64,000 bases of DNA from Gammaproteobacteria bacterium. Lineage in GTDB: Bacteria; Pseudomonadota; Gammaproteobacteria; JABABF01; JAHRAO01. The notes below the pieces were generated by a model. It did not search any database, was not told the origin of the DNA, and saw nothing but the letters and a program-made list of their open reading frames with translations. A program made the position numbers and the translations under genes. The stretch spans positions 10,718 through 74,717 of the forward strand of contig JAHRAO010000003.1 in the NCBI GenBank assembly GCA_020027215.1, in the 5' to 3' direction. Below are positions 52,909 to 60,925 of this stretch, one piece after another; the stretch's first letter is position 1, and every line of letters begins with the position of its first letter.

Positions 52909-52936
52909 TTGACAAATCATAATAAAGTATTATAAT
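52909..52936 (+). promoter_or_regulatory. near-consensus sigma70 promoter (TTGACA-16 nt-TATAAT) facing the outer-membrane-protein/T4SS genes and divergent from cydA
   Basis: TTGACA at 52909-52914, a 16-nt spacer, TATAAT at 52931-52936, and the first ORF start at 53079. Confidence 0.4.
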
Positions 52937-53078
52937 AATGGATTGGATTGTGCCATGCTCCTGCCCTCCATAGGGTGGCGCGAAACTGAAGGATGCATGC
53001 GGAACAATGGATGTGAAATGGATGTAAACAATGGACAACATAACGGATAATCGTAAAAGGAATAACAAAGGCAGGCGA

Positions 53079-53648
53079 ATGCTCTCCCACGCATTTTTAC
53101 CTGTCATCCTACACATACTCCCCGCGACTTTATACGCCAATTTCGAAATTGGATTAGGGGCTTATCGTGCGAGTAGTCTTGTGGGCTCTTCTGCTATTGT
53201 GTGGGCACCCGCACACTTATCGTATCACTGGCACCATCGGCGAGATGGACGACAACGGATTCATTGGGCTTTTATGCAGGCGCCGATCAGCGGACAAATA
53301 CAGCGGGCGCGATTGAAATATCAGTCCCTCAGTTGGCATTGGGAAAAAAAGTGGCGTCTCTCTTCACAGTTTAAGCCCTGGTGGTCATTGGGTATTGCCT
53401 ATGTGCGCGAATCACTGACCCATCGCTATGCAACAGACCGAGAAGGTTTCCTAGTCCAAGGATTGCCATCCATTCACCAGCAGGGTTTAGCGACCATTAC
53501 TGGCATCAATTTCGCATGGCACTACCGACAACAACATTTACTCTCTCTTGGAACACATTATTATTTCCCGCTTTACAAAGGGGCAGAAATTATAAGCATA
53601 CAGTTTATGTACGGTTACTTATGGGGACGACAAATACCGTCTGAATAA
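53079..53648 (+). CDS. small outer-membrane beta-barrel protein (putative, about 170 aa mature), the first gene of the T4SS-containing transcription unit
   Basis: Signal peptide MLSHAFLPVILHILPATLYA|NF, then about 8 amphipathic alternating stretches (FEIGLGAY, LKYQSLSWHWE, WSLGIAYVRE, ATITGINFAWHY, LSLGTHYYF, ISIQFMYGYLW). The track ORF from 53031 is over-extended. Confidence 0.35.
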   Translation: MLSHAFLPVILHILPATLYANFEIGLGAYRASSLVGSSAIVWAPAHLSYHWHHRRDGRQRIHWAFMQAPISGQIQRARLKYQSLSWHWEKKWRLSSQFKPWWSLGIAYVRESLTHRYATDREGFLVQGLPSIHQQGLATITGINFAWHYRQQHLLSLGTHYYFPLYKGAEIISIQFMYGYLWGRQIPSE

Positions 53649-53694
53649 CAACAAAATGTCTATTCGCAATGATGCGTCATAAAGGAGGATATCC

Positions 53695-54009
53695 ATGTCT
53701 ATAGTGCGTTTATTTGTGGTGAGTTTTTTACTCACCGTTCATTTGGCAGCATTCGCCAATAACTCTGCAGTGCAGCTCCCTTCATGGGGACAGCAAAGTG
53801 ACATTCAATCGACCTTATCCAGTAAAGGTGAGCAAATCGCCAATATTATCAGTTCAGTCGTCGCTATCTTATCCATATTAGGGATGTTAATCGGAGCGGC
53901 AATGTTTTCAGTCAGTCGCACCGATGATGGAAAAAAATGGATATTGGGGAGTGTATGCGGGTTGATTGTTGCGGGATCGGTCTACGGCATAGTGGGGCTC
54001 TTTATCTAA
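53695..54009 (+). CDS. virB2: T4SS pilin subunit VirB2/TrbC-like
   Basis: 104 aa, a long signal peptide (LLTVHLAAFA|NN), then two hydrophobic helices separated by a short loop (IISSVVAILSILGMLIGAAMF...WILGSVCGLIVAGSVYGIVGLFI). Strong RBS AAGGAGGA. It is the first gene of a B2-B3-B4 string. Confidence 0.5.
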   Translation: MSIVRLFVVSFLLTVHLAAFANNSAVQLPSWGQQSDIQSTLSSKGEQIANIISSVVAILSILGMLIGAAMFSVSRTDDGKKWILGSVCGLIVAGSVYGIVGLFI

Positions 54010-54287
54010 TGGCTGCCTTCAACGGACGATTTGTCATCAAGCGCTGGTTCGGTGTGCCGGCGCATGCCCTCGGGAGCGGGGTCATTGCTCTCCCTATCGC
54101 CATTATCGCCCTGCTCACCCAGATATGGTTATTGAAAGCATTTTGTATATTGATTGCGCTGATATGTATCGCCATCGGCATCGTCATTTTTATCATGGGT
54201 GCAGAGTGGCAATTTATTTCCATCATATTGGCATCTCGGCGAGAAAGAACCCAAATCACCGCGGATGGTATGGAGTGGGGATCATGA
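54009..54287 (+). CDS. virB3: T4SS VirB3/TrbD-like inner-membrane protein
   Basis: 92 aa with one or two TM helices. The start overlaps the virB2 stop (TAATG) and the stop overlaps the virB4 start (ATGA). Position is between the pilin and the VirB4 ATPase. Confidence 0.45.
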   Translation: MAAFNGRFVIKRWFGVPAHALGSGVIALPIAIIALLTQIWLLKAFCILIALICIAIGIVIFIMGAEWQFISIILASRRERTQITADGMEWGS

Positions 54288-56644
54288 GTCAACCAGCGCT
54301 TCGACACACTTACAGCACTTACTATACTTGGTCGCATCCGCTCAATGACCAAGTGATTGCCCATAAAGACGGTGCCGTATCATTGATGTGGTCATCGAAC
54401 GGGGTGGATAGCGAATTGATGAACGAGCGTGAGTGCCTGAATTGTTGGGAAGTGTACTATCGTTTACTCCATGCTATTCCATTGCATTACGCCTTAGAAA
54501 TCCATGCGTGGCGAGAAAGCGACGATCAATTGGCACAGAACTACTTAGCACAAAACAAACGTATTCAGCGTGCGCAGACATTAGCCACTATGGTGCGCCA
54601 CAAAATGGCGGCACATCTTTCGGAGTATGCCCGCACCAACCAAGTGATGTTTGTTTTAGTCAAATTGCCACCGCATAAGCATTTTTTTCGCCCTCAATCA
54701 CTGCTCGTTCAACAAAAAAAAACAGCCCACGAATTAGTCCAAACGGCGCAGCGGCTCATCCGTTTATTAGGGAATGGAAGCATTGTCTCCACTCAAATTT
54801 ACTGCCATAAAATTATTCAATCTTTTTCTCGCGCCCATTACCATCCCCATCAACAAATCAATATTCACCCCTATTTATTTTTAGATGAACAATTGATCAC
54901 TGACACACCCATCATAGAGCGCAATCAATTACGTTTAGGCAATCAGTACACCAAAGTCATGCTCTTGCATCTTTATCCCAACGCGACGCCAGGCTGGGCA
55001 AATTACCTGCTGACTCTTCCCGCCACTCTCCATATTACACAAATTATTCTACCCATCAACACCCAACTCCATATGCGGCAAACTGAACGCGAAGAGGACA
55101 TAGTGGTCGGCATGCGTTCGGGGCGGGATAGGGAATACAGTCAAAAAAATATTGGTGATTTAGCTGGTTTTCGCCATTTTGTCGTCGAAAATAACTTATC
55201 CATTTTTCGCAATTGTTTTATTGTCCATATTCACAGTGAAACAGAAGAACAACTACATAAAACAGTTGAACTCGTCCAAGATTGGGTGCAACGACAAGGC
55301 GGCGTATGGAAAACTGCCGAATATATGCAACTGCCTTTTTTTCGGCTTGCCCAACCCGGACAAGGTTATCGGAGTGGGATTTTTCGTCCAGATCACACAT
55401 GGCAAATCGGGGATATGATGCCATTACAGGTATACCAAACGGGGACTGACCGCCCCGAATCATTACGCCTCGGCACCGGATCACAGCTCGTTGGATTGTC
55501 CATCGGTGACGAAAGCATTGCCCACAGTTTCACCATCGCCATGACCGGTGCAGGCAAAGGTGTGGAAAAGGGAACCTGTATATTAGAAACCTATCCTTTG
55601 GGGATTGATTGGTATATTGCGGAGGTCGGTCAATCTTACCGCTGGATTGTAGAAGGGTGTGGAGGGTGTTACACCACCATAGATCCAGACAAAAATGTCG
55701 TCAATCCGTTACCGCCATATCAACTAGCCAATAGCGATCATACACTACCATTGGATGCCAAAATTGTGGGAGGGACGGTGCAAACACTCGGTTTTTTACT
55801 GACCGAAGGGGCAGTGACCCTCAACGCACATCAAAATGCCGCTGCGCAAGTCTGTTTGCAACAGTTATATATCCAGCCCACCGTGGATTCTATTGCCCCC
55901 ACCCTCGGTGATTATCAGCGTATTTTGAACACTGCCGACCATTTTGACAATCAATACCAACGCGATGCGGCGCGCACAATGGCGGCCAATTTAGAAAGTT
56001 TTTTATCCACAGCCGAAGGGCGTCTTTTTCATAGTCAAGAAAACTTTACTTTATCTGAAGGTATTGCGGGAGTCGATCTAAAAGATGTGATGCATGCTTC
56101 GCCGACCCTGTTGAAGTTTTATCTCGTTTTTCTTTCCGTGCGCATGGCGCAATTGGCATTTTATCGCGCCAACACGGCGCGCATTTTATTAGATGAAATG
56201 CATGTTTTTGCCAATAGTTTCCCCGAAGTGATCGGTCCTTTAATCAGCGGTATTGCACGCATGGGGCGCAAAAACGCCGGTTATATTGATCTGATTACGC
56301 AAGGAATTAAAGAAATAGATTGTTTAGAGCCAGAAATACTCAACTCTATGCCTTTGCGTACCCTTCTGTATCGCCCAGATGGGCATAACGAGATAGCCGA
56401 CCGCATCGCGATGCGTGACGGAGTTTTACAAAAATGGAAAGAGATGCCTTACCCAGAAAAACTCCCCTATCGCCCCGGTTTATGTTCGGTCGGTAATCAA
56501 TGGTTCAATTTACATTTAACTGTCCCCGTTGAAGTCATGGCGATGACCGATACCAGTCAACTAGCACGCAAAGAACGCATTGCTCGTATGACCAGCGATC
56601 CCATTGAACGGATACGATTATTTTATGCAGGAGAAGAAGAATGA
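54284..56644 (+). CDS. virB4: T4SS ATPase VirB4/TrbE-like (786 aa) with an atypical P-loop
   Basis: VirB4-like size. The C-terminal NTPase domain has P-loop-like AMTGAGKGVEKGT, Walker B ILLDEMHVF, and a downstream DLITQG (the conserved TQ of VirB4/TrbE). The start ATG at 54284 is in frame within track ORF 54125-56644. Confidence 0.6.
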   Translation: MSQPALRHTYSTYYTWSHPLNDQVIAHKDGAVSLMWSSNGVDSELMNERECLNCWEVYYRLLHAIPLHYALEIHAWRESDDQLAQNYLAQNKRIQRAQTLATMVRHKMAAHLSEYARTNQVMFVLVKLPPHKHFFRPQSLLVQQKKTAHELVQTAQRLIRLLGNGSIVSTQIYCHKIIQSFSRAHYHPHQQINIHPYLFLDEQLITDTPIIERNQLRLGNQYTKVMLLHLYPNATPGWANYLLTLPATLHITQIILPINTQLHMRQTEREEDIVVGMRSGRDREYSQKNIGDLAGFRHFVVENNLSIFRNCFIVHIHSETEEQLHKTVELVQDWVQRQGGVWKTAEYMQLPFFRLAQPGQGYRSGIFRPDHTWQIGDMMPLQVYQTGTDRPESLRLGTGSQLVGLSIGDESIAHSFTIAMTGAGKGVEKGTCILETYPLGIDWYIAEVGQSYRWIVEGCGGCYTTIDPDKNVVNPLPPYQLANSDHTLPLDAKIVGGTVQTLGFLLTEGAVTLNAHQNAAAQVCLQQLYIQPTVDSIAPTLGDYQRILNTADHFDNQYQRDAARTMAANLESFLSTAEGRLFHSQENFTLSEGIAGVDLKDVMHASPTLLKFYLVFLSVRMAQLAFYRANTARILLDEMHVFANSFPEVIGPLISGIARMGRKNAGYIDLITQGIKEIDCLEPEILNSMPLRTLLYRPDGHNEIADRIAMRDGVLQKWKEMPYPEKLPYRPGLCSVGNQWFNLHLTVPVEVMAMTDTSQLARKERIARMTSDPIERIRLFYAGEEE

Positions 56645-57288
56645 AATTACGACTCTATTTATTAATGCTGTGTTTAGCCCCCTCTCTAGCTTACAGCTAT
56701 GCAAGTGCACTCAATGATATCAAAATCATTGCTGAATTGCAGATGATTTACAAGCAAATTACCGAAACAATAGAACAAATACAGCAGCAAAAAGAAATTA
56801 TCCACCGGATGCAACAAACCATTGAAAGCGCTGAGCAAGATATGAATACCATTCGCAATACAAAATTGGAGGCATTGTTACACAATCCGGTGCGCAACAA
56901 ATATCGTTTGAACTCATTAGAACAAATAAGTAATTACCTCAATCAAGTCAAAGCACAAAGACAAAAATCTCCAGCGAATAGTAAAGAAAATGCTGTCTAT
57001 CAGCGTATAGAAGCACAACTCACCTCTCTGACTCAGCGCCATGAAATACTGAACTTATTAGATGAAAGCGTTGAAGATAACCTGCACACCGCAAACACAG
57101 ATGTATCTGAACGCCATAGTGCGCAAATTATGGCGCAATCGCTCAGTATAGTGGCGCAAATTGAAATTAAGCGAGAGAAAAGAGCGTTAGCACAAGAAAA
57201 AACTAACGCCGTCTCTGCCGAAATGGAATACAAAGTCGTAGAAATGCAGAGTGAGTTAGGTGAGTTAATTAAAAGGAGCGGTTGGTAG
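56641..57288 (+). CDS. VirB5/TrbJ-like secreted alpha-helical minor pilus/adhesin protein (putative)
   Basis: Signal peptide LYLLMLCLAPSLAYSYA, about 195 aa mature, and predicted all-helical/coiled coil. ATGA overlap with virB4. Position is between B4 and B6. Confidence 0.4.
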   Translation: MKLRLYLLMLCLAPSLAYSYASALNDIKIIAELQMIYKQITETIEQIQQQKEIIHRMQQTIESAEQDMNTIRNTKLEALLHNPVRNKYRLNSLEQISNYLNQVKAQRQKSPANSKENAVYQRIEAQLTSLTQRHEILNLLDESVEDNLHTANTDVSERHSAQIMAQSLSIVAQIEIKREKRALAQEKTNAVSAEMEYKVVEMQSELGELIKRSGW

Positions 57289-57289
57289 T

Positions 57290-58423
57290 ATGGAGTGGCA
57301 CAATTTAGGCACCTTATTAAATGCGCAATATATCTACGAAGGGGGAAAAAACCTCTCCTTTTTTATTGCGGGAACCATTACGCCCGTATTGTTAGTCATC
57401 AATTTATGGATACGTTTAGCGCGTCATCAAATGGACACTTTGACTGCCGGGCAAGGGAAATGGTCGGCATTGGCAAAAGATTTAGCGATTTGGTTGCCCA
57501 TTTTGGGGTTGTACTTTGCCCTTGCCCACCTGTTGAGTGGTGTATTACAACCTATCTATAACGCATTTAGTTCATTCGGCACTCTCGGACAAACTTTTGA
57601 TCTCTTTAAGAAGCTGCTTGAAGTTGAGAGCCCCGAAGCATCGGTGTTATCTTTTGTGAGCAATCTATCGCTCATTCTGCCCTGGATGCTCTATTATTTG
57701 TCCAGTTTAATTGCCAGCATCATCATCATTTTTATGAAAATGGCGCATGCGGTCGCCTATAGCATTGCGCTATGCTGGGGATTAATTGCCATTCCATTAT
57801 CTATTGGCGGTTTTAAGGTATTGCGCGGATGGGCTATTTTAGGGGGCACAGTTTTACTATGGCCGATTATGCACTACATGTGCTTTGCACTTTTTAATCC
57901 CGTTTTTAGCAAAATTATTACCTCTATTGACACCGGAACGCTAGGCGATACTTCGGTTAAATTGCAATTTTATTTGCTCCTCAATATTATCAATTTCATC
58001 ACTGCTGCTATTTCCATTAGTGCTCCTTTTATTGCATCGGCACTCATCAACAATAGCGGTGCCATAGGAAGCATCGTGACTCCTATGGCGACCGCCGCAT
58101 TAGCAACGGCAGCTATAGCCGCACAAACGACCAGCAAGCACATGCAACAAAACAGTAATAAAACAGATGGGGGATCTCATCGCAAACGGTACGGTACACA
58201 ACAAACACCGCAGCCCGATAAAACAAATCCGACGAGTAGAGGAAGCCATGGGTCGTTCTCGCCCACACAACAGCCACCCACACCGCATCATAGCCCGCGC
58301 AGCGATCGCCATTCTCCCTCCATAGCGGATACAAAAAATGAGGCGCACGACAAGCCCGCCGCACTTCCCGCACCGCCACCATCTAATCGTTTGTTACCCC
58401 CTCCTCCTCAATTGAAGAACTAA
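57290..58423 (+). CDS. virB6: VirB6/TrbL-like polytopic inner-membrane protein with a Pro/Ser/His-rich C-terminal tail
   Basis: At least 6 TM helices over residues 1-280, then about 95 aa of low-complexity tail (QTPQPDKTNPTSRGSHGSFSPTQQPPTPHHSPRSDRHSPS...PAPPPSNRLLPPPPQLKN). Confidence 0.5.
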   Translation: MEWHNLGTLLNAQYIYEGGKNLSFFIAGTITPVLLVINLWIRLARHQMDTLTAGQGKWSALAKDLAIWLPILGLYFALAHLLSGVLQPIYNAFSSFGTLGQTFDLFKKLLEVESPEASVLSFVSNLSLILPWMLYYLSSLIASIIIIFMKMAHAVAYSIALCWGLIAIPLSIGGFKVLRGWAILGGTVLLWPIMHYMCFALFNPVFSKIITSIDTGTLGDTSVKLQFYLLLNIINFITAAISISAPFIASALINNSGAIGSIVTPMATAALATAAIAAQTTSKHMQQNSNKTDGGSHRKRYGTQQTPQPDKTNPTSRGSHGSFSPTQQPPTPHHSPRSDRHSPSIADTKNEAHDKPAALPAPPPSNRLLPPPPQLKN

Positions 58424-58425
58424 TA

Positions 58426-59106
58426 ATGACTCCCGACCGCCCAGATACCTCATCAGATGTGCATACTGCACAATGGAATCCTTTAGCGCGTCGTTTTGCC
58501 CGCTCACCACAAATGATGGTTTTGCGTTTAGCGCGCTACGCATTGCTCGGTTGGGTACTCTTTTTTATTGTGCTCATTACTTTTGTGTTGCACGCCATGA
58601 TCGCCACACTACGCCCAGTCCCTGTTATTGCGGTGAATGAACGCGGCGAAGTTATCGGTGAATTTGAGTATCTCAACAATGCAATGCGCACCGATGAAGA
58701 GGTAATTGCCGCCTCTATGTATTTCGTAGAACGCTATTTATCTTTGAATAGTGCATCTATTTATGATGATTACGCCATAGCGCTGTCCATGATGTCACCC
58801 GCTATGCAAGAAAAAACGCTGGATGAAATTAAAGCCACCGGGTATCTCAAACGCATTGCCAACTCGGCAATACATAGCCATATTGAATATCATGCACCAC
58901 CGACACTCTTGCAACGTAAAGGTGCGGAAGTCATGGTGCATTTAATAGGAAACATGGTCGTCATCGGTACAACGCAGCAAGACGGCGAACAAACAAAAAA
59001 GGCTTTTGATATGACCCTACTAGCCGAAATGGTGCCACGCACCATTAGACAAACTCAAGGAATACACATATTAGACATCCGTCAAACTCAAGGGAACACG
59101 GAATGA
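58426..59106 (+). CDS. virB8: VirB8/TrbF-like bitopic protein
   Basis: 226 aa: a cytoplasmic N-terminus, a single TM (LLGWVLFFIVLITFVLHAMIA), and a periplasmic NTF2-like-sized domain. Starts 3 nt after the virB6 stop. Confidence 0.5.
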   Translation: MTPDRPDTSSDVHTAQWNPLARRFARSPQMMVLRLARYALLGWVLFFIVLITFVLHAMIATLRPVPVIAVNERGEVIGEFEYLNNAMRTDEEVIAASMYFVERYLSLNSASIYDDYAIALSMMSPAMQEKTLDEIKATGYLKRIANSAIHSHIEYHAPPTLLQRKGAEVMVHLIGNMVVIGTTQQDGEQTKKAFDMTLLAEMVPRTIRQTQGIHILDIRQTQGNTE

Positions 59107-60014
59107 ATTATAAAGGTATGTTGCGCGTGGGGGTCAGCATATTAGCGATCTGCGCACAGAGCAGTTGGAGTGATGTCATGCCTGTAGTGCGCACGGTCAC
59201 CTTACAACCGCACACTATTCTGCATGTCAAATTGGTCCCCGACTTAGGCTCACGCTTTATATTTCCTTTTATTTTAGATAAAGCGGGCGGAACAGTCCCT
59301 TTCACTTTGAATATGACTAATCCCGTCTTTGCACATCATCGGGCGGAAGGGCGCAATTTTTTTACAGTGGAAATTGATCCCCAAAATAACAACGAATCAT
59401 TTGATTTATATTTTGGCAATTTATTTGTGACCGTCGGCGACTATAACATTTCCATTTTATTATCGTCAACCAATAATTTACAAGAGCATATCAGCGATTA
59501 TATTTTTCGCTTAGACGATGAAAAAGCACATGAATTGATTGAGGAAAAAATTGCTCATCGCGTCGGTGCGCTCGTCAAACAATATAAAAGCAAAATGGCA
59601 CGTCTCGATCAGCAGGCACAACAGTTAGCTTTAGAAAAAATGGTGCATATCGTGCGGCACAAGCCACAAATCAAACGCGTGCGCGAAAATAATAGGGTAG
59701 AAACTGCCCAAGGCGATATCGTATTAGAATGGCATAGTATATCCAGTTACGGGAAGTTGTTACATATCATCCGCTACTCCATTAATAATAGCAGCACGAA
59801 AGACATTGACATTCATAGCGTTGCAATCACTGCCACAAAAAATGATGTGCCAGCACAATTAATCTCTGGAGTCAATCAAGGGCCGCAGTATCTACCCGCT
59901 GGCAAAAAAGTCGGTGCCGTTTTTGCGACCGATTCTTCTTTAGTTCGCGATTATCGCTATCAAATTTCCCTCACCCTCCAAACGAGTATGGGGCACTTAC
60001 AAGTAAAATGGTAA
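59103..60014 (+). CDS. virB9: VirB9/TrbG-like periplasmic/outer-membrane channel subunit (putative) with a central coiled-coil insertion
   Basis: Signal peptide (VSILAICAQSSWS), beta-rich N-terminal and C-terminal domains separated by a helical segment (DDEKAHELIEEKIAHRVGALVKQYKSKMARLDQQAQQLALEKM). ATGA overlap with virB8. Sits immediately before the B10-like gene. Confidence 0.4.
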   Translation: MNYKGMLRVGVSILAICAQSSWSDVMPVVRTVTLQPHTILHVKLVPDLGSRFIFPFILDKAGGTVPFTLNMTNPVFAHHRAEGRNFFTVEIDPQNNNESFDLYFGNLFVTVGDYNISILLSSTNNLQEHISDYIFRLDDEKAHELIEEKIAHRVGALVKQYKSKMARLDQQAQQLALEKMVHIVRHKPQIKRVRENNRVETAQGDIVLEWHSISSYGKLLHIIRYSINNSSTKDIDIHSVAITATKNDVPAQLISGVNQGPQYLPAGKKVGAVFATDSSLVRDYRYQISLTLQTSMGHLQVKW

Positions 60015-60925
60015 TGCGCCCGCTGTTACATAGCTCCCTTCTTATGGTGATCGGTATAGCGTGGCATCATGCGGTATACGCCCAAACGAATGAAAGGATT
60101 ATTACTGCCGATATGCTACGCCATCTCTCACACGAATCGTATCATCGGCACAAGCACAATCGTGCTCCAGTTTATCCGGGCAAGATTGCGGCATTTATGC
60201 ATGAAATGCTCCCCTCAGAAATCAGTGCCACTAATACAAAGAATTTGCCGCCACCGCCTTCATCCACCAAAATAACTTCTACAGAAGACGAAAAGCCACC
60301 TCAAATGATTGTCGTCACACCACTACCACCTCACCCTAGTTCCACACACATTTACTTCCCACCCCAACGGGTGGTGACAAAATCTCATAGCGACGACATT
60401 CACCAACCCAAGAAAAAATCATTTGGCATTGATATTGGAAAATGGATTAAAGGTAAAATTAAGCGGCAACTTACAAACGCCGACCCCGGACTCATTGAAA
60501 TCATCGTCACCGAAGCGGTCAAGGGTCGTGTACGCACTGTGCCAGCAGGAAGTATTCTGTTCGCACAAAAATATTACAATCAAGGGACTCTCAAGTTAGA
60601 TCTCATCGTGCAAAGAGGATTGTTACCCGATGGCGAAGAATTTCCCATAAAGGGGTTGATTTATAATACTCAGTTCCACGCCGGTTTAGTCGGGCAAGTG
60701 ATTAAAAATAAAGATTTTAATAAAAACAAATTGTCCAAAGCCCTTATACAGAGCGGTAAAAAAATATTACAGACCCACATCGGCACTCAATCCACCGCGC
60801 CTTTAGTGTCTGTTGCCGGCGATGCAGCCTTCTCACCGTTAGCACCAACGATGAACGCTAAACTACCCTACATTATTTCGGTTGCCCCACAGCAGGTCAA
60901 CATTCAAGTGCAAAAAAGCTTTTAG
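60008..60925 (+). CDS. virB10: VirB10/TrbI-like protein
   Basis: Short N-terminus plus a TM helix, a Pro-rich linker (LPPPPSSTKITSTEDEKPPQMIVVTPLPPHPSS), and a C-terminal domain with RVRTVPAGSILFAQ resembling the TrbI/VirB10 (R/T)hPAGThI motif. An alternative start is ATG 60014. Confidence 0.55.
   Translation: MVMRPLLHSSLLMVIGIAWHHAVYAQTNERIITADMLRHLSHESYHRHKHNRAPVYPGKIAAFMHEMLPSEISATNTKNLPPPPSSTKITSTEDEKPPQMIVVTPLPPHPSSTHIYFPPQRVVTKSHSDDIHQPKKKSFGIDIGKWIKGKIKRQLTNADPGLIEIIVTEAVKGRVRTVPAGSILFAQKYYNQGTLKLDLIVQRGLLPDGEEFPIKGLIYNTQFHAGLVGQVIKNKDFNKNKLSKALIQSGKKILQTHIGTQSTAPLVSVAGDAAFSPLAPTMNAKLPYIISVAPQQVNIQVQKSF

What the first reader, a model, noticed from the sequence alone, without database searches (positions are those of the whole stretch)
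53079..60925. Orphan chromosomal VirB/Trb-like T4SS (B2-B3-B4-B5-B6-B8-B9-B10) with no VirB11, VirD4, relaxase or mobility genes
Eight genes are packed with 1-4 nt overlaps at almost every junction (TAATG or ATGA), so they are translationally coupled. Their order, sizes and topologies match a type IV secretion core. The order is: two-helix pilin (104 aa), small TM protein (92 aa), a 786-aa ATPase with Walker B and TQ motifs, a secreted helical protein, a polytopic membrane protein, a bitopic 226-aa protein, a periplasmic protein with a signal peptide, and a TM plus Pro-rich plus VPAGSIL protein.

The block sits between cydABX and dadA/ggt. The window contains no VirB11 traffic ATPase, no VirD4 coupling protein, no VirB1 transglycosylase, no VirB7 lipoprotein ORF (virB6 and virB8 abut), no relaxase/oriT, no integrase and no flanking tRNA. 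A T4SS driven only by VirB4 is the hallmark of ComB-type DNA-uptake systems, known from Helicobacter and Campylobacter. It also recalls the split rvh systems of Rickettsiales. Neither arrangement is expected in a free-living-type gammaproteobacterial chromosome segment.

The cluster could be a DNA uptake or release machine, an adhesion/pilus system, or one half of a split T4SS whose ATPases are encoded elsewhere.
Basis: partly seen in the sequence, partly recalled or inferred. Interest (0 to 1): 0.85.

Follow-up and report, generated by a model that had tools for sequence, protein, structure and literature searches.

The report
Divergent chromosomal T4SS lacking coupling protein
This is an intact nine-gene type IV secretion (conjugation-type) machine from a very divergent lineage that standard annotation tools largely miss, sitting among housekeeping genes after losing the coupling and DNA-processing genes its plasmid relatives still carry, so it most likely now only builds a pilus or channel.

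Summary
Nine co-directional, abutting or overlapping genes lie at 53079-60925, between cydBA and a dadA-like gene plus ggt.

It is a real T4SS, but not a VirB/Trb (MPF_T) one. Pfam recognises none of the window proteins. Evidence comes from sub-threshold VirB4/TraC hits, family-level hits (TrbC/VirB2, TrbI, VirB8), a confident VirB9-like AlphaFold model, a weak VirB6 fold match and VirB3-VirB4 fusions in relatives.

The VirB4 family is small and discrete, about 70 clusters among 1.84 billion proteins, nearly all from uncultured bacteria. Only 1 of 72,556 plasmids carries it, and MOB-suite does not list an MPF for that plasmid.

About 16 of the 57 relatives' loci examined are plasmid/ICE-like and add ParAB, Replic_Relax proteins, a DotL-like coupling protein and a large lipoprotein. 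None has VirB11. So missing VirB11 is ancestral, not a ComB hallmark.

The window belongs to a clade nested among those elements that lost the coupling module. Its composition matches the host, and relatives show purifying selection on the core genes.

Most likely it is an exapted, VirB4-only pilus/channel machine. Use in trans by separate coupling modules is a live rival.

The parts
52909..52936 (+). Candidate operon promoter: perfect sigma-70 consensus, TTGACA-16 nt-TATAAT
   Evidence: 12/12 match and the best site in the region. It lies about 140 nt upstream of the first gene. This is a consensus match only; function is not shown.
53079..53648 (+). g0: 189-aa outer-membrane beta-barrel protein with a signal peptide (alternative start at 53031). 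This is the ninth gene of the cluster.
   Evidence: It is conserved in 23 loci. Six of 22 family members hit Pfam OMP_b-brl (best 2.8e-7) and two hit the Autotransporter beta-domain. It lies downstream of B10 in plasmid-like relatives and upstream of B2 only in the window, L003 and L004.
53695..54009 (+). VirB2/TrbC-type pilin, 104 aa (signal peptide plus two TM helices)
   Evidence: The window protein hits T4SS_pilin only weakly (E=0.038). At family level, 17 of 26 members hit TrbC/VirB2 (best 4e-6) and 10 hit T4SS_pilin (best 1.5e-7).
54009..54287 (+). VirB3-like small membrane protein, 92 aa
   Evidence: No database hit. In relatives it is fused to the N-terminus of the VirB4 (P0033, P0046, P0048, P0049; B3 HMM E about 1e-25). 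Its best R388 partner in hhalign is TrwM/VirB3, though the match is not significant.
54284..56644 (+). VirB4/TraC-superfamily ATPase, 786 aa, with deviant Walker A (TGAGKG) and Walker B LLDEMH
   Evidence: NCBIfam hits: TraC-F-type E=2.9e-16, VirB4_CagE 9.5e-14, CD1110 1.8e-9, Mbov_0397 7.6e-7. All are far below the curated cutoffs. There is no Pfam hit at E<=0.01; the only listed match is a weak P-loop_TraG hit (E=0.066, 12.3 bits against a cutoff of 25.8). A family profile finds no PDB VirB4 at E<=0.01. The nearest out-of-family proteins are TraC-F-like at 180-290 bits.
56641..57288 (+). VirB5-like secreted helical protein, 215 aa
   Evidence: No Pfam hit in 30 family members. hhalign of the family against R388 TrwJ/VirB5 gives probability 85% and E=6.7e-6 over 72 N-terminal columns. 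It evolves fast: dN/dS is about 1 between L003 and L004.
57290..58423 (+). VirB6-like polytopic membrane protein, 377 aa, with a Pro/Ser-rich tail
   Evidence: No Pfam hit in 33 family members. The AF2 model is low-confidence (pLDDT 57.5). Even so, the top two of 350,542 PDB chains belong to the R388 TrwJ/TrwI (VirB5-VirB6) stalk entry: 7o3v_J, E=7.9e-3, TMt 0.54. The chains are about 260 residues long, so I take them to be TrwI/VirB6.
58426..59106 (+). VirB8/DotI-like bitopic protein, 226 aa
   Evidence: NCBIfam IcmL/DotI, E=6.3e-4 across 175 of 200 profile positions. Three of 30 family members hit Pfam VirB8 (best 1.1e-4). A profile search of PDB sequences finds nothing.
59103..60014 (+). 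VirB9/TraK/DotH-class outer-membrane core protein, 303 aa: two beta domains joined by a 47-residue helix
60014..60925 (+). VirB10/TrbI-like protein, 303 aa (305 from 60008): N-terminal hydrophobic segment, Pro-rich linker and a C-terminal domain with the VPAGSIL motif
   Evidence: Orthologs carry Pfam TrbI PF03743. The family profile hits CagY at E=0.022. hhalign against TrwE/VirB10 gives E=1e-4 over 119 columns.

Best explanation
The cluster is a complete mating-pair-formation (T4SS) module of a very divergent, apparently undescribed T4SS lineage. It contains a pilin, VirB3-, VirB4-, VirB5-, VirB6-, VirB8-, VirB9- and VirB10-like proteins, and a dedicated outer-membrane beta-barrel protein.

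The ancestors of this module were plasmid/ICE-borne conjugation systems. Those also encode ParAB, two Replic_Relax proteins, a DotL-like coupling protein (T4CP) and a roughly 1000-aa surface lipoprotein. None ever had a VirB11.

In the window's clade (the window plus two high-GC relatives), the coupling, DNA-processing and partition genes and the lipoprotein were lost. The barrel gene moved to the front of the operon, and the module became a resident chromosomal operon.

Inferred mechanism: the nine proteins still assemble an envelope-spanning complex, built from a B9/B10 (plus barrel) outer core, a B3/B4/B6/B8 inner-membrane complex and a B5/B6 stalk. The VirB4 ATPase extracts pilin from the inner membrane to build a pilus. 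With no coupling protein to recruit cytoplasmic substrates, the machine stays in its default pilus-producing mode. Its output would be a surface filament or channel used for contact or adhesion (Bartonella Trw-like), possibly also DNA capture, rather than autonomous conjugation.

Shown: gene content, homologies, evolutionary derivation, loss of the T4CP module, composition matched to the host, and purifying selection in relatives. Inferred: assembly, piliation and the biological role.
For: T4SS identity:
- VirB4/TraC hits.
- Family-level pilin, VirB8 and OMP hits.
- TrbI in orthologs.
- VirB9 fold.
- VirB6 as top fold hit.
- VirB5 and VirB10 by hhalign. In addition, the best R388 match of each of the eight families is its cognate.
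- VirB3-VirB4 fusions.

A separate lineage:
- No significant Pfam hits on the window proteins.
- Only 1 of 72,556 plasmids carries this family. The next best match is F-type TraC at 24% identity, E=4e-4.
- MOB-suite types that plasmid as only 'mobilizable' and lists no MPF.
- In the search of 1.84 billion proteins, full-length scores run from 1219 down to 330 bits, then drop to 120 or less.

Derivation from conjugative elements:
- Synteny maps.
- The T4CP profile matches IcmO/DotL at E=1.2e-11.
- Replic_Relax hits in 9 members.
- The window's VirB4 clusters with the T4CP-less L003/L004 group, inside T4CP-bearing elements (NJ tree, no bootstrap).
- Higher B2, B3, B6, B9 and g0 identities to L003/L004, and the shared upstream position of g0.

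Resident and maintained:
- All nine ORFs are intact.
- GC, GC3 and codon usage match the rest of the window.
- Cluster GC tracks the host in each locus: 45%, 69% and 74%.
- dN/dS between the two T4CP-less relatives is 0.25-0.5 for B4, B8, B2, B6, B9 and B10.
- There is a consensus promoter.
- There is no room for gene remnants at the borders: 260 nt and 75 nt.

Pilus default mode: VirD4 is needed only for substrate transfer, and deleting the T4CP from F and pKM101 causes hyperpiliation (PMC13463995 abstract). Known T4CP-less systems are Ptl, Brucella VirB, ComB and Bartonella Trw (PMC12857230 section 20).
Against: - No functional data exist for any member of this lineage.
- Only 64 kb of the genome was visible, so a T4CP, relaxase or effector genes may lie elsewhere.
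- MPF-less Replic_Relax+T4CP modules exist in this family (L074, L104), so trans use is plausible.
- The sole ATPase has a non-canonical P-loop (GKG), and its activity is untested.
- The large lipoprotein conserved in most relatives is missing here.
- B5 shows dN/dS of about 1 and B3 about 0.7 in relatives. This could reflect relaxed constraint rather than diversifying selection.
- The B3, B5, B6 and B8 assignments rest on weak or indirect evidence.
- The window clade is supported by an NJ tree without bootstrap values. It is also supported by architecture and by some, not all, of the proteins.
Confidence: 0.5

Rival explanations
1. It is a trans-acting helper (split conjugation system). The operon is a working mating channel used by coupling-protein/relaxase modules encoded elsewhere in the genome or on co-resident mobilizable elements, so it still serves DNA transfer.
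For: This family is modular. L074 and L104 carry Replic_Relax x2 + T4CP (+c12) with no MPF genes in at least 7.9 kb downstream. What follows instead is LPS glycosyltransferases, or SSB and a UvrD-type helicase. About half of the family's loci lack a T4CP within 10 kb. The Tenderia plasmid is typed as carrying a MOBP relaxase elsewhere on the replicon. All MPF components are intact.
Against: No T4CP, Replic_Relax or relaxase was found in 64 kb here, nor within 10 kb in L003 and L004. Where a downstream sequence could be assessed, 14 of 16 complete T4CP genes of this family (18 loci if two contig-edge fragments, L112 and L113, are counted) sit directly upstream of their own MPF. The chromosomal clusters are ameliorated and integrase-less, which is unlike helper elements.
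Confidence: 0.2
2. It is a ComB-like DNA-uptake machine. A VirB4-powered (pseudo)pilus brings dsDNA into the periplasm and a ComEC-type channel completes the import.
For: It has the same minimal ATPase set as ComB: VirB4 only, with no VirD4 and no VirB11 (PMC12857230 section 20). It is chromosomal, MOB-less and maintained.
Against: Lack of VirB11 is ancestral to the whole lineage, including its conjugative members, so it does not point to ComB. ComB lacks VirB5 and this system keeps a B5-like gene. There is no sequence affinity to ComB proteins beyond the generic sub-threshold VirB4 models. No comEC or comH gene was seen next to any locus. Nothing is known about competence in these uncultured hosts.
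Confidence: 0.12
3. It is a non-functional remnant of an integrated conjugative element that is slowly decaying.
For: The coupling, DNA-processing, partition and lipoprotein genes found in relatives have been lost. B5 and B3 have high dN/dS in relatives. The VirB4 P-loop is deviant.
Against: All nine ORFs are intact and translationally coupled in three genomes that have diverged to 58% VirB4 identity and by 25-29 points of GC. Core genes have dN/dS of 0.25-0.5. The deviant P-loop is shared by the T4CP-bearing elements and shows a compensatory Walker A/Walker B swap, which implies a working site. There is a perfect consensus promoter. No pseudogene fragments remain at the borders.
Confidence: 0.07
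4. It is a two-step exporter (Ptl/Brucella-like). Sec-exported periplasmic substrates are pushed across the outer membrane by the T4SS.
For: T4CP-less systems such as Ptl work this way. L003 and L004 carry two large Sec/lipoprotein-signal TPR proteins directly downstream of B10, and similar proteins lie near L016, L018 and L050.
Against: No candidate substrate gene is linked in the window; the next genes are the dadA-like gene and ggt. The Ptl and Brucella systems as I know them (VirB/Ptl operons) include a VirB11 homolog, which this lineage lacks; this rests on background knowledge, not on a tool result. The TPR proteins are not conserved across the clade.
Confidence: 0.06

Closest known systems
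Bartonella Trw T4SS (T4CP-less derivative of an R388-like conjugation system)
   Same: It is a chromosomal MPF module derived from a plasmid conjugation system, has lost its coupling protein, and is thought to have kept only the pilus-producing function (PMC12857230 section 20). The gene order B2-B3-B4-B5-B6-B8-B9-B10 is the same as in R388.
   Different: Trw keeps VirB11 and has amplified, variable pilin and VirB5 genes; its proteins are close to R388. Here there is no VirB11, the pilin and B5 genes are single-copy, and there is an extra OMP barrel gene. Similarity to R388 proteins is barely detectable. The host appears free-living rather than a pathogen.
Helicobacter pylori ComB DNA-uptake T4SS
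   Same: VirB4 is the only ATPase. It has no VirD4, VirB11 or relaxase, and it is chromosomal.
   Different: ComB lacks VirB5 and has VirB7. In the present lineage the absence of VirB11 is ancestral and shared with conjugative relatives. No specific sequence relationship was detected, and a DNA-uptake role is untested.
MPF_T conjugation systems (R388 Trw, Agrobacterium VirB, RP4 Trb)
   Same: Gene order and protein sizes match almost one for one. There is a VirB9 fold, a TrbI-type VirB10 and a TrbC/VirB2 pilin.
   Different: No VirB1, VirB7 or VirB11. The VirB4 scores 51 bits against a cutoff of 643 for VirB4_CagE. The family profile finds no PDB VirB4. The VirB9 has a 47-residue helical insert. 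The relatives' T4CP is most like DotL rather than TrwB.
F-type (MPF_F) systems, TraC ATPase
   Same: This is the best sequence match for the ATPase: TraC-F-type E=2.9e-16, and Piscirickettsia TraC at 24% identity. F-type systems also work without VirB11.
   Different: The score is 59 bits against a cutoff of 567. No gene in the cluster hits any F-specific family (TraU, TraW, TraF, TraH, TraN). The gene order is VirB-like.
Dot/Icm and IncI (type IVB) systems
   Same: The relatives' coupling protein is closest to IcmO/DotL (E=1.2e-11). The B8-like protein's best named hit is IcmL/DotI. A Dot/Icm chain taken to be DotH is among the B9 fold hits.
   Different: The system has 9 genes rather than about 25. 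It lacks DotB, and the similarities are weak.

Membership tests
Type IV secretion system (any class) | VirB4-family ATPase, the only ubiquitous T4SS protein | tested here: met
   Four independent VirB4-class NCBIfam models hit at E=7.6e-7 to 2.9e-16 over residues 268-730. The nearest out-of-family proteins are TraC-like at 180-290 bits. Caveats: all scores are far below curated cutoffs, and Walker A is deviant.
Type IV secretion system (any class) | Outer-membrane core pair, VirB9-like plus VirB10-like | tested here: met
Type IV secretion system (any class) | VirB2/TrbC pilin | tested here: met
   Seventeen of 26 family members hit PF04956 (best 4e-6) and 10 hit PF18895. The window protein itself reaches only E=0.038.
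Type IV secretion system (any class) | Inner-membrane components VirB3, VirB6 and VirB8 | tested here: inconclusive
   B3: fusion to B4 in relatives. B6: low-confidence model whose top two PDB hits belong to the R388 VirB5-VirB6 stalk entry. B8: DotI at E=6e-4, and 3 of 30 members hit Pfam VirB8. All of these point the right way and none is strong.
MPF_T (VirB/Trb) class | VirB4 reaching the curated VirB4_CagE or TrbE thresholds | tested here: not met
   50.6 bits against a cutoff of 643.1; no TrbE model hit.
MPF_T (VirB/Trb) class | VirB11 traffic ATPase, with VirB7 lipoprotein and VirB1 transglycosylase usually present | tested here: not met
   None was found in the window or in any of the 57 relatives' loci examined. 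B6 and B8 are separated by 2 nt.
MPF_F class | TraC at equivalog score, plus F-specific TraU/W/F/H/N proteins | tested here: not met
   58.6 bits against a cutoff of 567. No F-specific family was hit by any cluster protein or family member.
Self-transmissible conjugative element (plasmid/ICE) | Relaxase plus T4CP plus MPF at one locus, with an integrase or replication/partition genes | tested here: not met
   The window has the MPF only. Plasmid-like relatives do have ParAB, Replic_Relax, a T4CP and an integrase.
ComB-type competence T4SS | Gene set B2-B4 and B6-B10, with no B5, B11 or D4 | tested here: not met
   B11 and D4 are absent, but a B5-like gene is present and B7 is absent.
ComB-type competence T4SS | Phylogenetic placement of VirB4 with ComB4, and ComEC/ComH partners in the genome | not tested
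T4CP-less exapted T4SS (Trw, Ptl, Brucella and ComB as a functional group) | Complete MPF without a coupling protein, maintained in the chromosome | tested here: met
   Nine ORFs are intact and no T4CP is present in 64 kb. The same architecture is seen in L003 and L004. Core genes are under purifying selection and composition matches the host. Absence of a T4CP from the rest of the genome could not be tested.

The most novel reading that the evidence does not exclude
This is a chromosomal member of a previously unclassified T4SS (MPF) class. Its distinctive traits are a VirB4 with a non-canonical GKG P-loop, a dedicated outer-membrane barrel, a giant Ig-domain lipoprotein, a DotL-like coupling protein and Replic_Relax DNA-processing proteins. 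The class would have been domesticated repeatedly into coupling-protein-less machines in free-living bacteria: the window clade, a clade fixed between bioFHC and rpoH in Acidiferrobacter-like genomes, and a clade in roughly 2-Mb chromosomes. Those machines would serve a host function not yet described for T4SSs outside pathogens.
Probability: 0.3. Interest if true: 0.8.

Novelty: new variant of a known kind. Interest (0 to 1): 0.6.

Why it matters
T4SS classification and plasmid-mobility prediction depend on profile libraries. This lineage slips through them. Pfam gives no significant hit on the window proteins, every NCBIfam hit is below cutoff, and MOB-suite lists no MPF for the only sequenced plasmid that carries it.

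Conjugative potential in environmental Gammaproteobacteria, Nitrospirota, Gallionellaceae and Desulfobacteraceae is therefore under-counted.

The lineage also offers several natural experiments in which a conjugation machine lost its coupling protein and was kept by the chromosome. So far that situation has been studied only in pathogens (Trw, ComB, Ptl, Brucella).

The invariant GKG P-loop, with a compensatory GKD/NE variant, gives a concrete test of how VirB4 ATPases bind Mg-ATP.

One cultured carrier, Ferrimonas kyonanensis DSM 18153, makes experiments possible.

Tried and rejected
- **Concatenated B9+B6 query** for the search for homologous proteins. The word filter returned only six B6 homologs, so one capped search was largely wasted.
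B8, B5, B10 and g0 therefore could not be modelled.
- **Profile searches of PDB sequences** with the B9, B8 and B4 families found nothing useful.
- **hhalign against single R388 proteins** is insensitive. Only B5 and B10 gave usable scores, and the first attempt timed out.
- **The B6 AF2 model** is low-confidence (pLDDT 57.5), so its VirB6 match is only suggestive.
The host taxon, and the 'gammaproteobacterial' label, remain unverified.
- **Literature searches** found no description of this lineage or of the Tenderia plasmid's transfer genes.
- **The large genes after B10 in L003/L004** are not the missing lipoprotein. They are TPR-repeat lipoproteins unrelated to c7.
- **'Recently acquired island'** was rejected: composition and codon usage match the host, and there are no att-like repeats, integrase or adjacent tRNA.
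- **'Truncated by the window edge'** was rejected for the upstream side, where 53 kb of housekeeping genes are visible. Downstream only 3 kb is visible (the dadA-like gene and ggt).

Full report
**1. Observation**

The + strand from 53079 to 60925 carries nine tightly packed genes.

| Gene | Coordinates | Length |
|---|---|---|
| g0 | 53079-53648 | 189 aa |
| B2 | 53695-54009 | 104 aa |
| B3 | 54009-54287 | 92 aa |
| B4 | 54284-56644 | 786 aa |
| B5 | 56641-57288 | 215 aa |
| B6 | 57290-58423 | 377 aa |
| B8 | 58426-59106 | 226 aa |
| B9 | 59103-60014 | 303 aa |
| B10 | 60014-60925 | 303 aa |

Junctions are 1-4 nt overlaps or 1-2 nt gaps.

The flanks are housekeeping genes. Upstream are pdxJ, a low-molecular-weight phosphatase, mutS, ferredoxin, a PLP enzyme, yajC and cydBA. 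Downstream are a DAO-family (dadA-like) gene and ggt.

A perfect sigma-70 consensus (TTGACA-16-TATAAT) lies at 52909-52936.

**2. Is it a T4SS?**

No window protein has a significant Pfam hit.

NCBIfam does place the 786-aa protein in the VirB4/TraC superfamily. The hits are TraC-F-type (2.9e-16), VirB4_CagE (9.5e-14), CD1110 (1.8e-9) and Mbov_0397 (7.6e-7). These score 27-59 bits against curated cutoffs of 325-643.

I therefore collected relatives and tested each family as a whole. There were 126 VirB4 homologs, 53 loci from species-representative genomes, further contigs and my own ORF clustering.

- **Pilin:** 17 of 26 members hit TrbC/VirB2 and 10 hit T4SS_pilin.
- **B10:** orthologs carry Pfam TrbI. 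The profile hits CagY (E=0.022) and TrwE (hhalign E=1e-4).
- **B8:** IcmL/DotI at E=6e-4, and 3 of 30 members hit Pfam VirB8.
- **B5:** hhalign to TrwJ/VirB5 gives 85% probability and E=7e-6, but over the N-terminal 72 columns only.
- **B6:** no Pfam hit in 33 members. The model is low-confidence (pLDDT 57.5). Even so, its two best matches among 350,542 PDB chains belong to the R388 VirB5-VirB6 stalk entry.
- **B3:** in several relatives it is fused to the N-terminus of B4 (E about 1e-25). I recall VirB3-VirB4 fusions from other T4SSs, but I did not check this here.
- **g0:** an outer-membrane beta-barrel; 6 of 22 members hit OMP_b-brl.

In the hhalign matrix, the best R388 partner of each of the eight families is its cognate. 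Gene order and sizes mirror R388 trwL-M-K-J-I-G-F-E.

I consider the T4SS call secure. I consider the B3, B5, B6 and B8 labels probable.

**3. How far is it from known systems?**

- Of 72,556 PLSDB plasmids, only the Ca. Tenderia electrophaga plasmid CP013100 carries this VirB4 (47% identity). The next best hit is Piscirickettsia F-type TraC at 24% identity, E=4e-4.
- All genes of that plasmid's cluster are annotated as hypothetical. MOB-suite types the plasmid 'mobilizable, MOBP' and lists no MPF.
- A family profile finds no VirB4 among PDB sequences at E<=0.01.
- Against 1.84 billion 50%-identity representatives, the profile finds 95 proteins at E<=1e-30. Full-length scores fall smoothly from 1219 to 330 bits, then jump to 120 or less.
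- Ten proteins sampled just beyond the gap are themselves sub-threshold TraC-F-like (183-292 bits against a cutoff of 567).

The family is thus a small, discrete, peripheral branch of the VirB4/TraC superfamily. I found no paper describing it.

**4. Context in relatives**

*Type A loci.* This group has about 16 members from the genome scan, plus a JGI contig that holds the element 1.47 times (copies 35.1 kb apart), which indicates a circular element of about 35 kb. The order is: Replic_Relax-like, ParA, ParB, Replic_Relax/wHTH, a 535-aa TM+Walker-A protein, a 120-aa membrane protein, B2 to B10, a small protein, g0, a roughly 1000-aa lipoprotein with CarboxypepD_reg and Ig-like domains, and sometimes an integrase. 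The 535-aa family is a coupling protein. Its profile hits IcmO/DotL at E=1.2e-11, and Pfam TraG-D_C hits are weak. No locus has a VirB11.

*Type B loci.* About 16 Acidiferrobacter-like MAGs carry B2 to B10, g0 and a 500-aa lipoprotein at a fixed chromosomal site. The site lies between bioF-bioH-bioC and rpoH, next to MSH-pilus genes, with no coupling protein.

*Window type.* The window, L003 and L004 (a 3.0-Mb chromosome) have g0 moved upstream of B2 and no coupling protein. No c7-family lipoprotein was found in the window, and the large genes after B10 in L003/L004 are not c7.

In an NJ tree of 162 VirB4s (no bootstrap), the window groups with L003/P0002, P0003 and L004/P0005. That group is nested among type A elements. 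Higher B2, B3, B6, B9 and g0 identities agree with this. B4, B5, B8 and B10 are uninformative.

A more distant clade (27% identity) sits in 1.9-2.1-Mb complete chromosomes and also has no nearby Walker-A protein.

Conversely, a metagenome scan with the coupling-protein profile found 14 loci where the MPF follows directly. It also found two loci, L074 and L104, where Replic_Relax x2 + T4CP stand alone with at least 7.9 kb of unrelated DNA downstream. Two further contig-edge T4CP fragments (L112, L113) also lack the MPF. The modules therefore separate in both directions.

**5. State of the window's copy**

- **No coupling or mobility genes in 64 kb.** There are none of the family's T4CP, Replic_Relax, ParAB, c12, c27 or lipoprotein genes, and nothing resembling R388 TrwB, TrwC or TrwD. 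The large remaining ORFs are metabolic or envelope genes.
- **No tRNA at the borders.** The only tRNA is tRNA-Met, 12 kb away.
- **No att-like repeats**.
- **No room for gene remnants.** The intergenic borders are 260 and 75 nt.
- **Composition matches the host.** GC3 is 0.443 against 0.437 +/- 0.032 for other genes, and RSCU correlations are in range for most genes.
- **The cluster tracks host GC in each relative:** 45%, 69% and 74%.
- **The core is under purifying selection in relatives.** Between the two T4CP-less relatives, NG86 dN/dS is 0.25 (B4, B8), 0.30 (B2), 0.38 (B6) and 0.45-0.53 (B10, B9, g0). It is 0.71 for B3 and 0.99 for B5. dS is probably underestimated at this GC.

Together these argue for a long-resident, selected operon rather than a fresh island or a decaying remnant.

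**6. Mechanism**

This is inferred from established T4SS biology. The review PMC12857230 describes the R388 architecture: a VirB9/VirB10 outer core, a VirB3/VirB4/VirB8 inner-membrane complex and a VirB5/VirB6 stalk.

It lists Ptl, Brucella VirB, ComB and Bartonella Trw as the known systems lacking VirD4. Trw is proposed to have kept only pilus production.

[quoted passage not shown] Deleting it from F or pKM101 gives hyperpiliation, and pilus production is the default mode.

A complete MPF with pilin and a B5-like tip but no coupling protein is therefore most simply a VirB4-driven pilus or channel machine. I put about 0.5 on this, covering identity plus a T4CP-independent surface-structure role. 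The identity part alone is about 0.9.

The main rival, at about 0.2, is use in trans by separately encoded T4CP/Replic_Relax modules, which demonstrably exist in this family. ComB-like DNA uptake gets about 0.12, decay about 0.07 and two-step export about 0.06. These cannot be excluded from 64 kb of sequence.

**7. An unexplained feature**

The only ATPase has A-[M/I/K]-T-G-x-G-K-G-V in place of GxxxxGK[S/T]. This holds in 142 of 162 family members.

A 12-member clade of T4CP-bearing elements has G-K-D together with Walker B N-E instead of D-E. This is an apparent compensatory swap of the acidic residue between the two motifs. It argues that the site is functional but unconventional.

**8. Verdict**

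The T4SS call and the absence of VirB11, VirD4 and relaxase in the window hold. The 'VirB/Trb-like' label and the 'ComB hallmark' reasoning do not.

MOB-less T4SSs are reported as abundant, and further exaptations in free-living bacteria have been anticipated (PMC3548315). The orphan state alone is therefore only moderately surprising.

The interest lies in the lineage. It is a T4SS branch that current libraries largely miss, with its own accessory set and repeated coupling-protein loss. I class it as a new variant of a known kind, with interest 0.6.

Noticed in passing
window 52909-52936 (+): A perfect 12/12 sigma-70 consensus (TTGACA, 16-nt spacer, TATAAT) lies about 140 nt upstream of the first gene of the cluster. 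It is the best promoter-like site in the region.
   Followed up: partly
window 55544-55561 (B4 residues 421-426, TGAGKG); relatives L019, L021, L022, P0082-P0094: The VirB4 Walker A has Gly instead of Ser/Thr after the Lys in 142 of 162 family members. A 12-member clade has G-K-D together with Walker B N-E instead of D-E, an apparent compensatory swap. One sequence (P0075) has the canonical GKT.
   Followed up: partly
P0033, P0046, P0048, P0049 (884-885 aa); P0208-P0227 (890-924 aa): The VirB3-like protein is fused to the N-terminus of the VirB4 in several relatives (B3 HMM E about 1e-25, and 1e-5 to 1e-9 in the more distant group).
   Followed up: yes
L074:514-4088 and L104:5571-9572: These are stand-alone modules of two Replic_Relax proteins plus the DotL-like coupling protein (plus c12 in L104), with no MPF genes in at least 7.9 kb downstream. 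LPS glycosyltransferases, or SSB and a UvrD-type helicase, follow instead. They are candidate mobilizable elements that would need this MPF in trans.
   Followed up: partly
L003:16983-22282; L004:16874-22110; also near the clusters in L016, L018 and L050: Two large TPR-repeat lipoproteins (754-776 and 696-710 aa) and a smaller TPR protein lie directly after the VirB10-like gene in the window's closest T4CP-less relatives. Similar TPR proteins occur near three other loci. They are absent from the window.
   Followed up: partly
L028-L037, L046, L053 and other type B loci: In about 16 Acidiferrobacter-like MAGs the cluster (with g0 and a 500-aa Ig-domain lipoprotein) occupies a fixed site. The site lies between bioF-bioH-bioC and rpoH, next to MSH-type pilus genes, and has no coupling protein. 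This looks like a second, independent chromosomal fixation.
   Followed up: partly
L047 (NZ_AUDJ01000051.1, Ferrimonas kyonanensis DSM 18153): This is the one cultured isolate seen among the carriers of this T4SS family (VirB4 34% identical). The contig is only 5.9 kb, so the rest of the locus is not visible.
   Followed up: no
L060/L061 (JGI contig Ga0316204_10001908, 51.7 kb): The same type A element appears twice on one contig, with copies 35.1 kb apart. This is consistent with a circular element of about 35 kb assembled past its end. Its VirB4 is the closest type A relative of the window's (59% identity).
   Followed up: partly
window 59103-60014 (B9 residues 139-185): The VirB9-like model has a confident 47-residue helix between its two beta domains. 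I do not recall such a helix in the VirB9/TraK structures it matches, but I did not check this.
   Followed up: no
L054, L055 (OZ242303.1, OZ242292.1; complete chromosomes of 1.86 and 2.06 Mb): This is a distant clade (VirB4 27% identical) with two tandem pilin-like genes upstream and no Walker-A protein over 300 aa within 10 kb. Several VirB9 homologs (P0146, P0147, P0158, P0160, P0162) also sit on 1.8-2.4-Mb contigs.
   Followed up: no
L003 vs L004, B5 and B3 genes: dN/dS is about 1.0 for the VirB5-like gene and 0.7 for the VirB3-like gene, against 0.25-0.5 for the other components. This could be either diversifying selection on a surface tip protein or relaxed constraint.
   Followed up: no
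L058 (CP013100.1, Ca. Tenderia electrophaga plasmid): Every gene of the T4SS cluster on this complete plasmid is annotated 'hypothetical protein'. MOB-suite types the plasmid as mobilizable (MOBP) with no MPF listed, so existing tools under-call its conjugative potential.
   Followed up: yes
genomes JBNKKI01 (L006, L007), VBWC01 (L024, L045), JAJDBW01 (L020, L027): Three MAGs each carry two copies of the type A element on different contigs.
   Followed up: no
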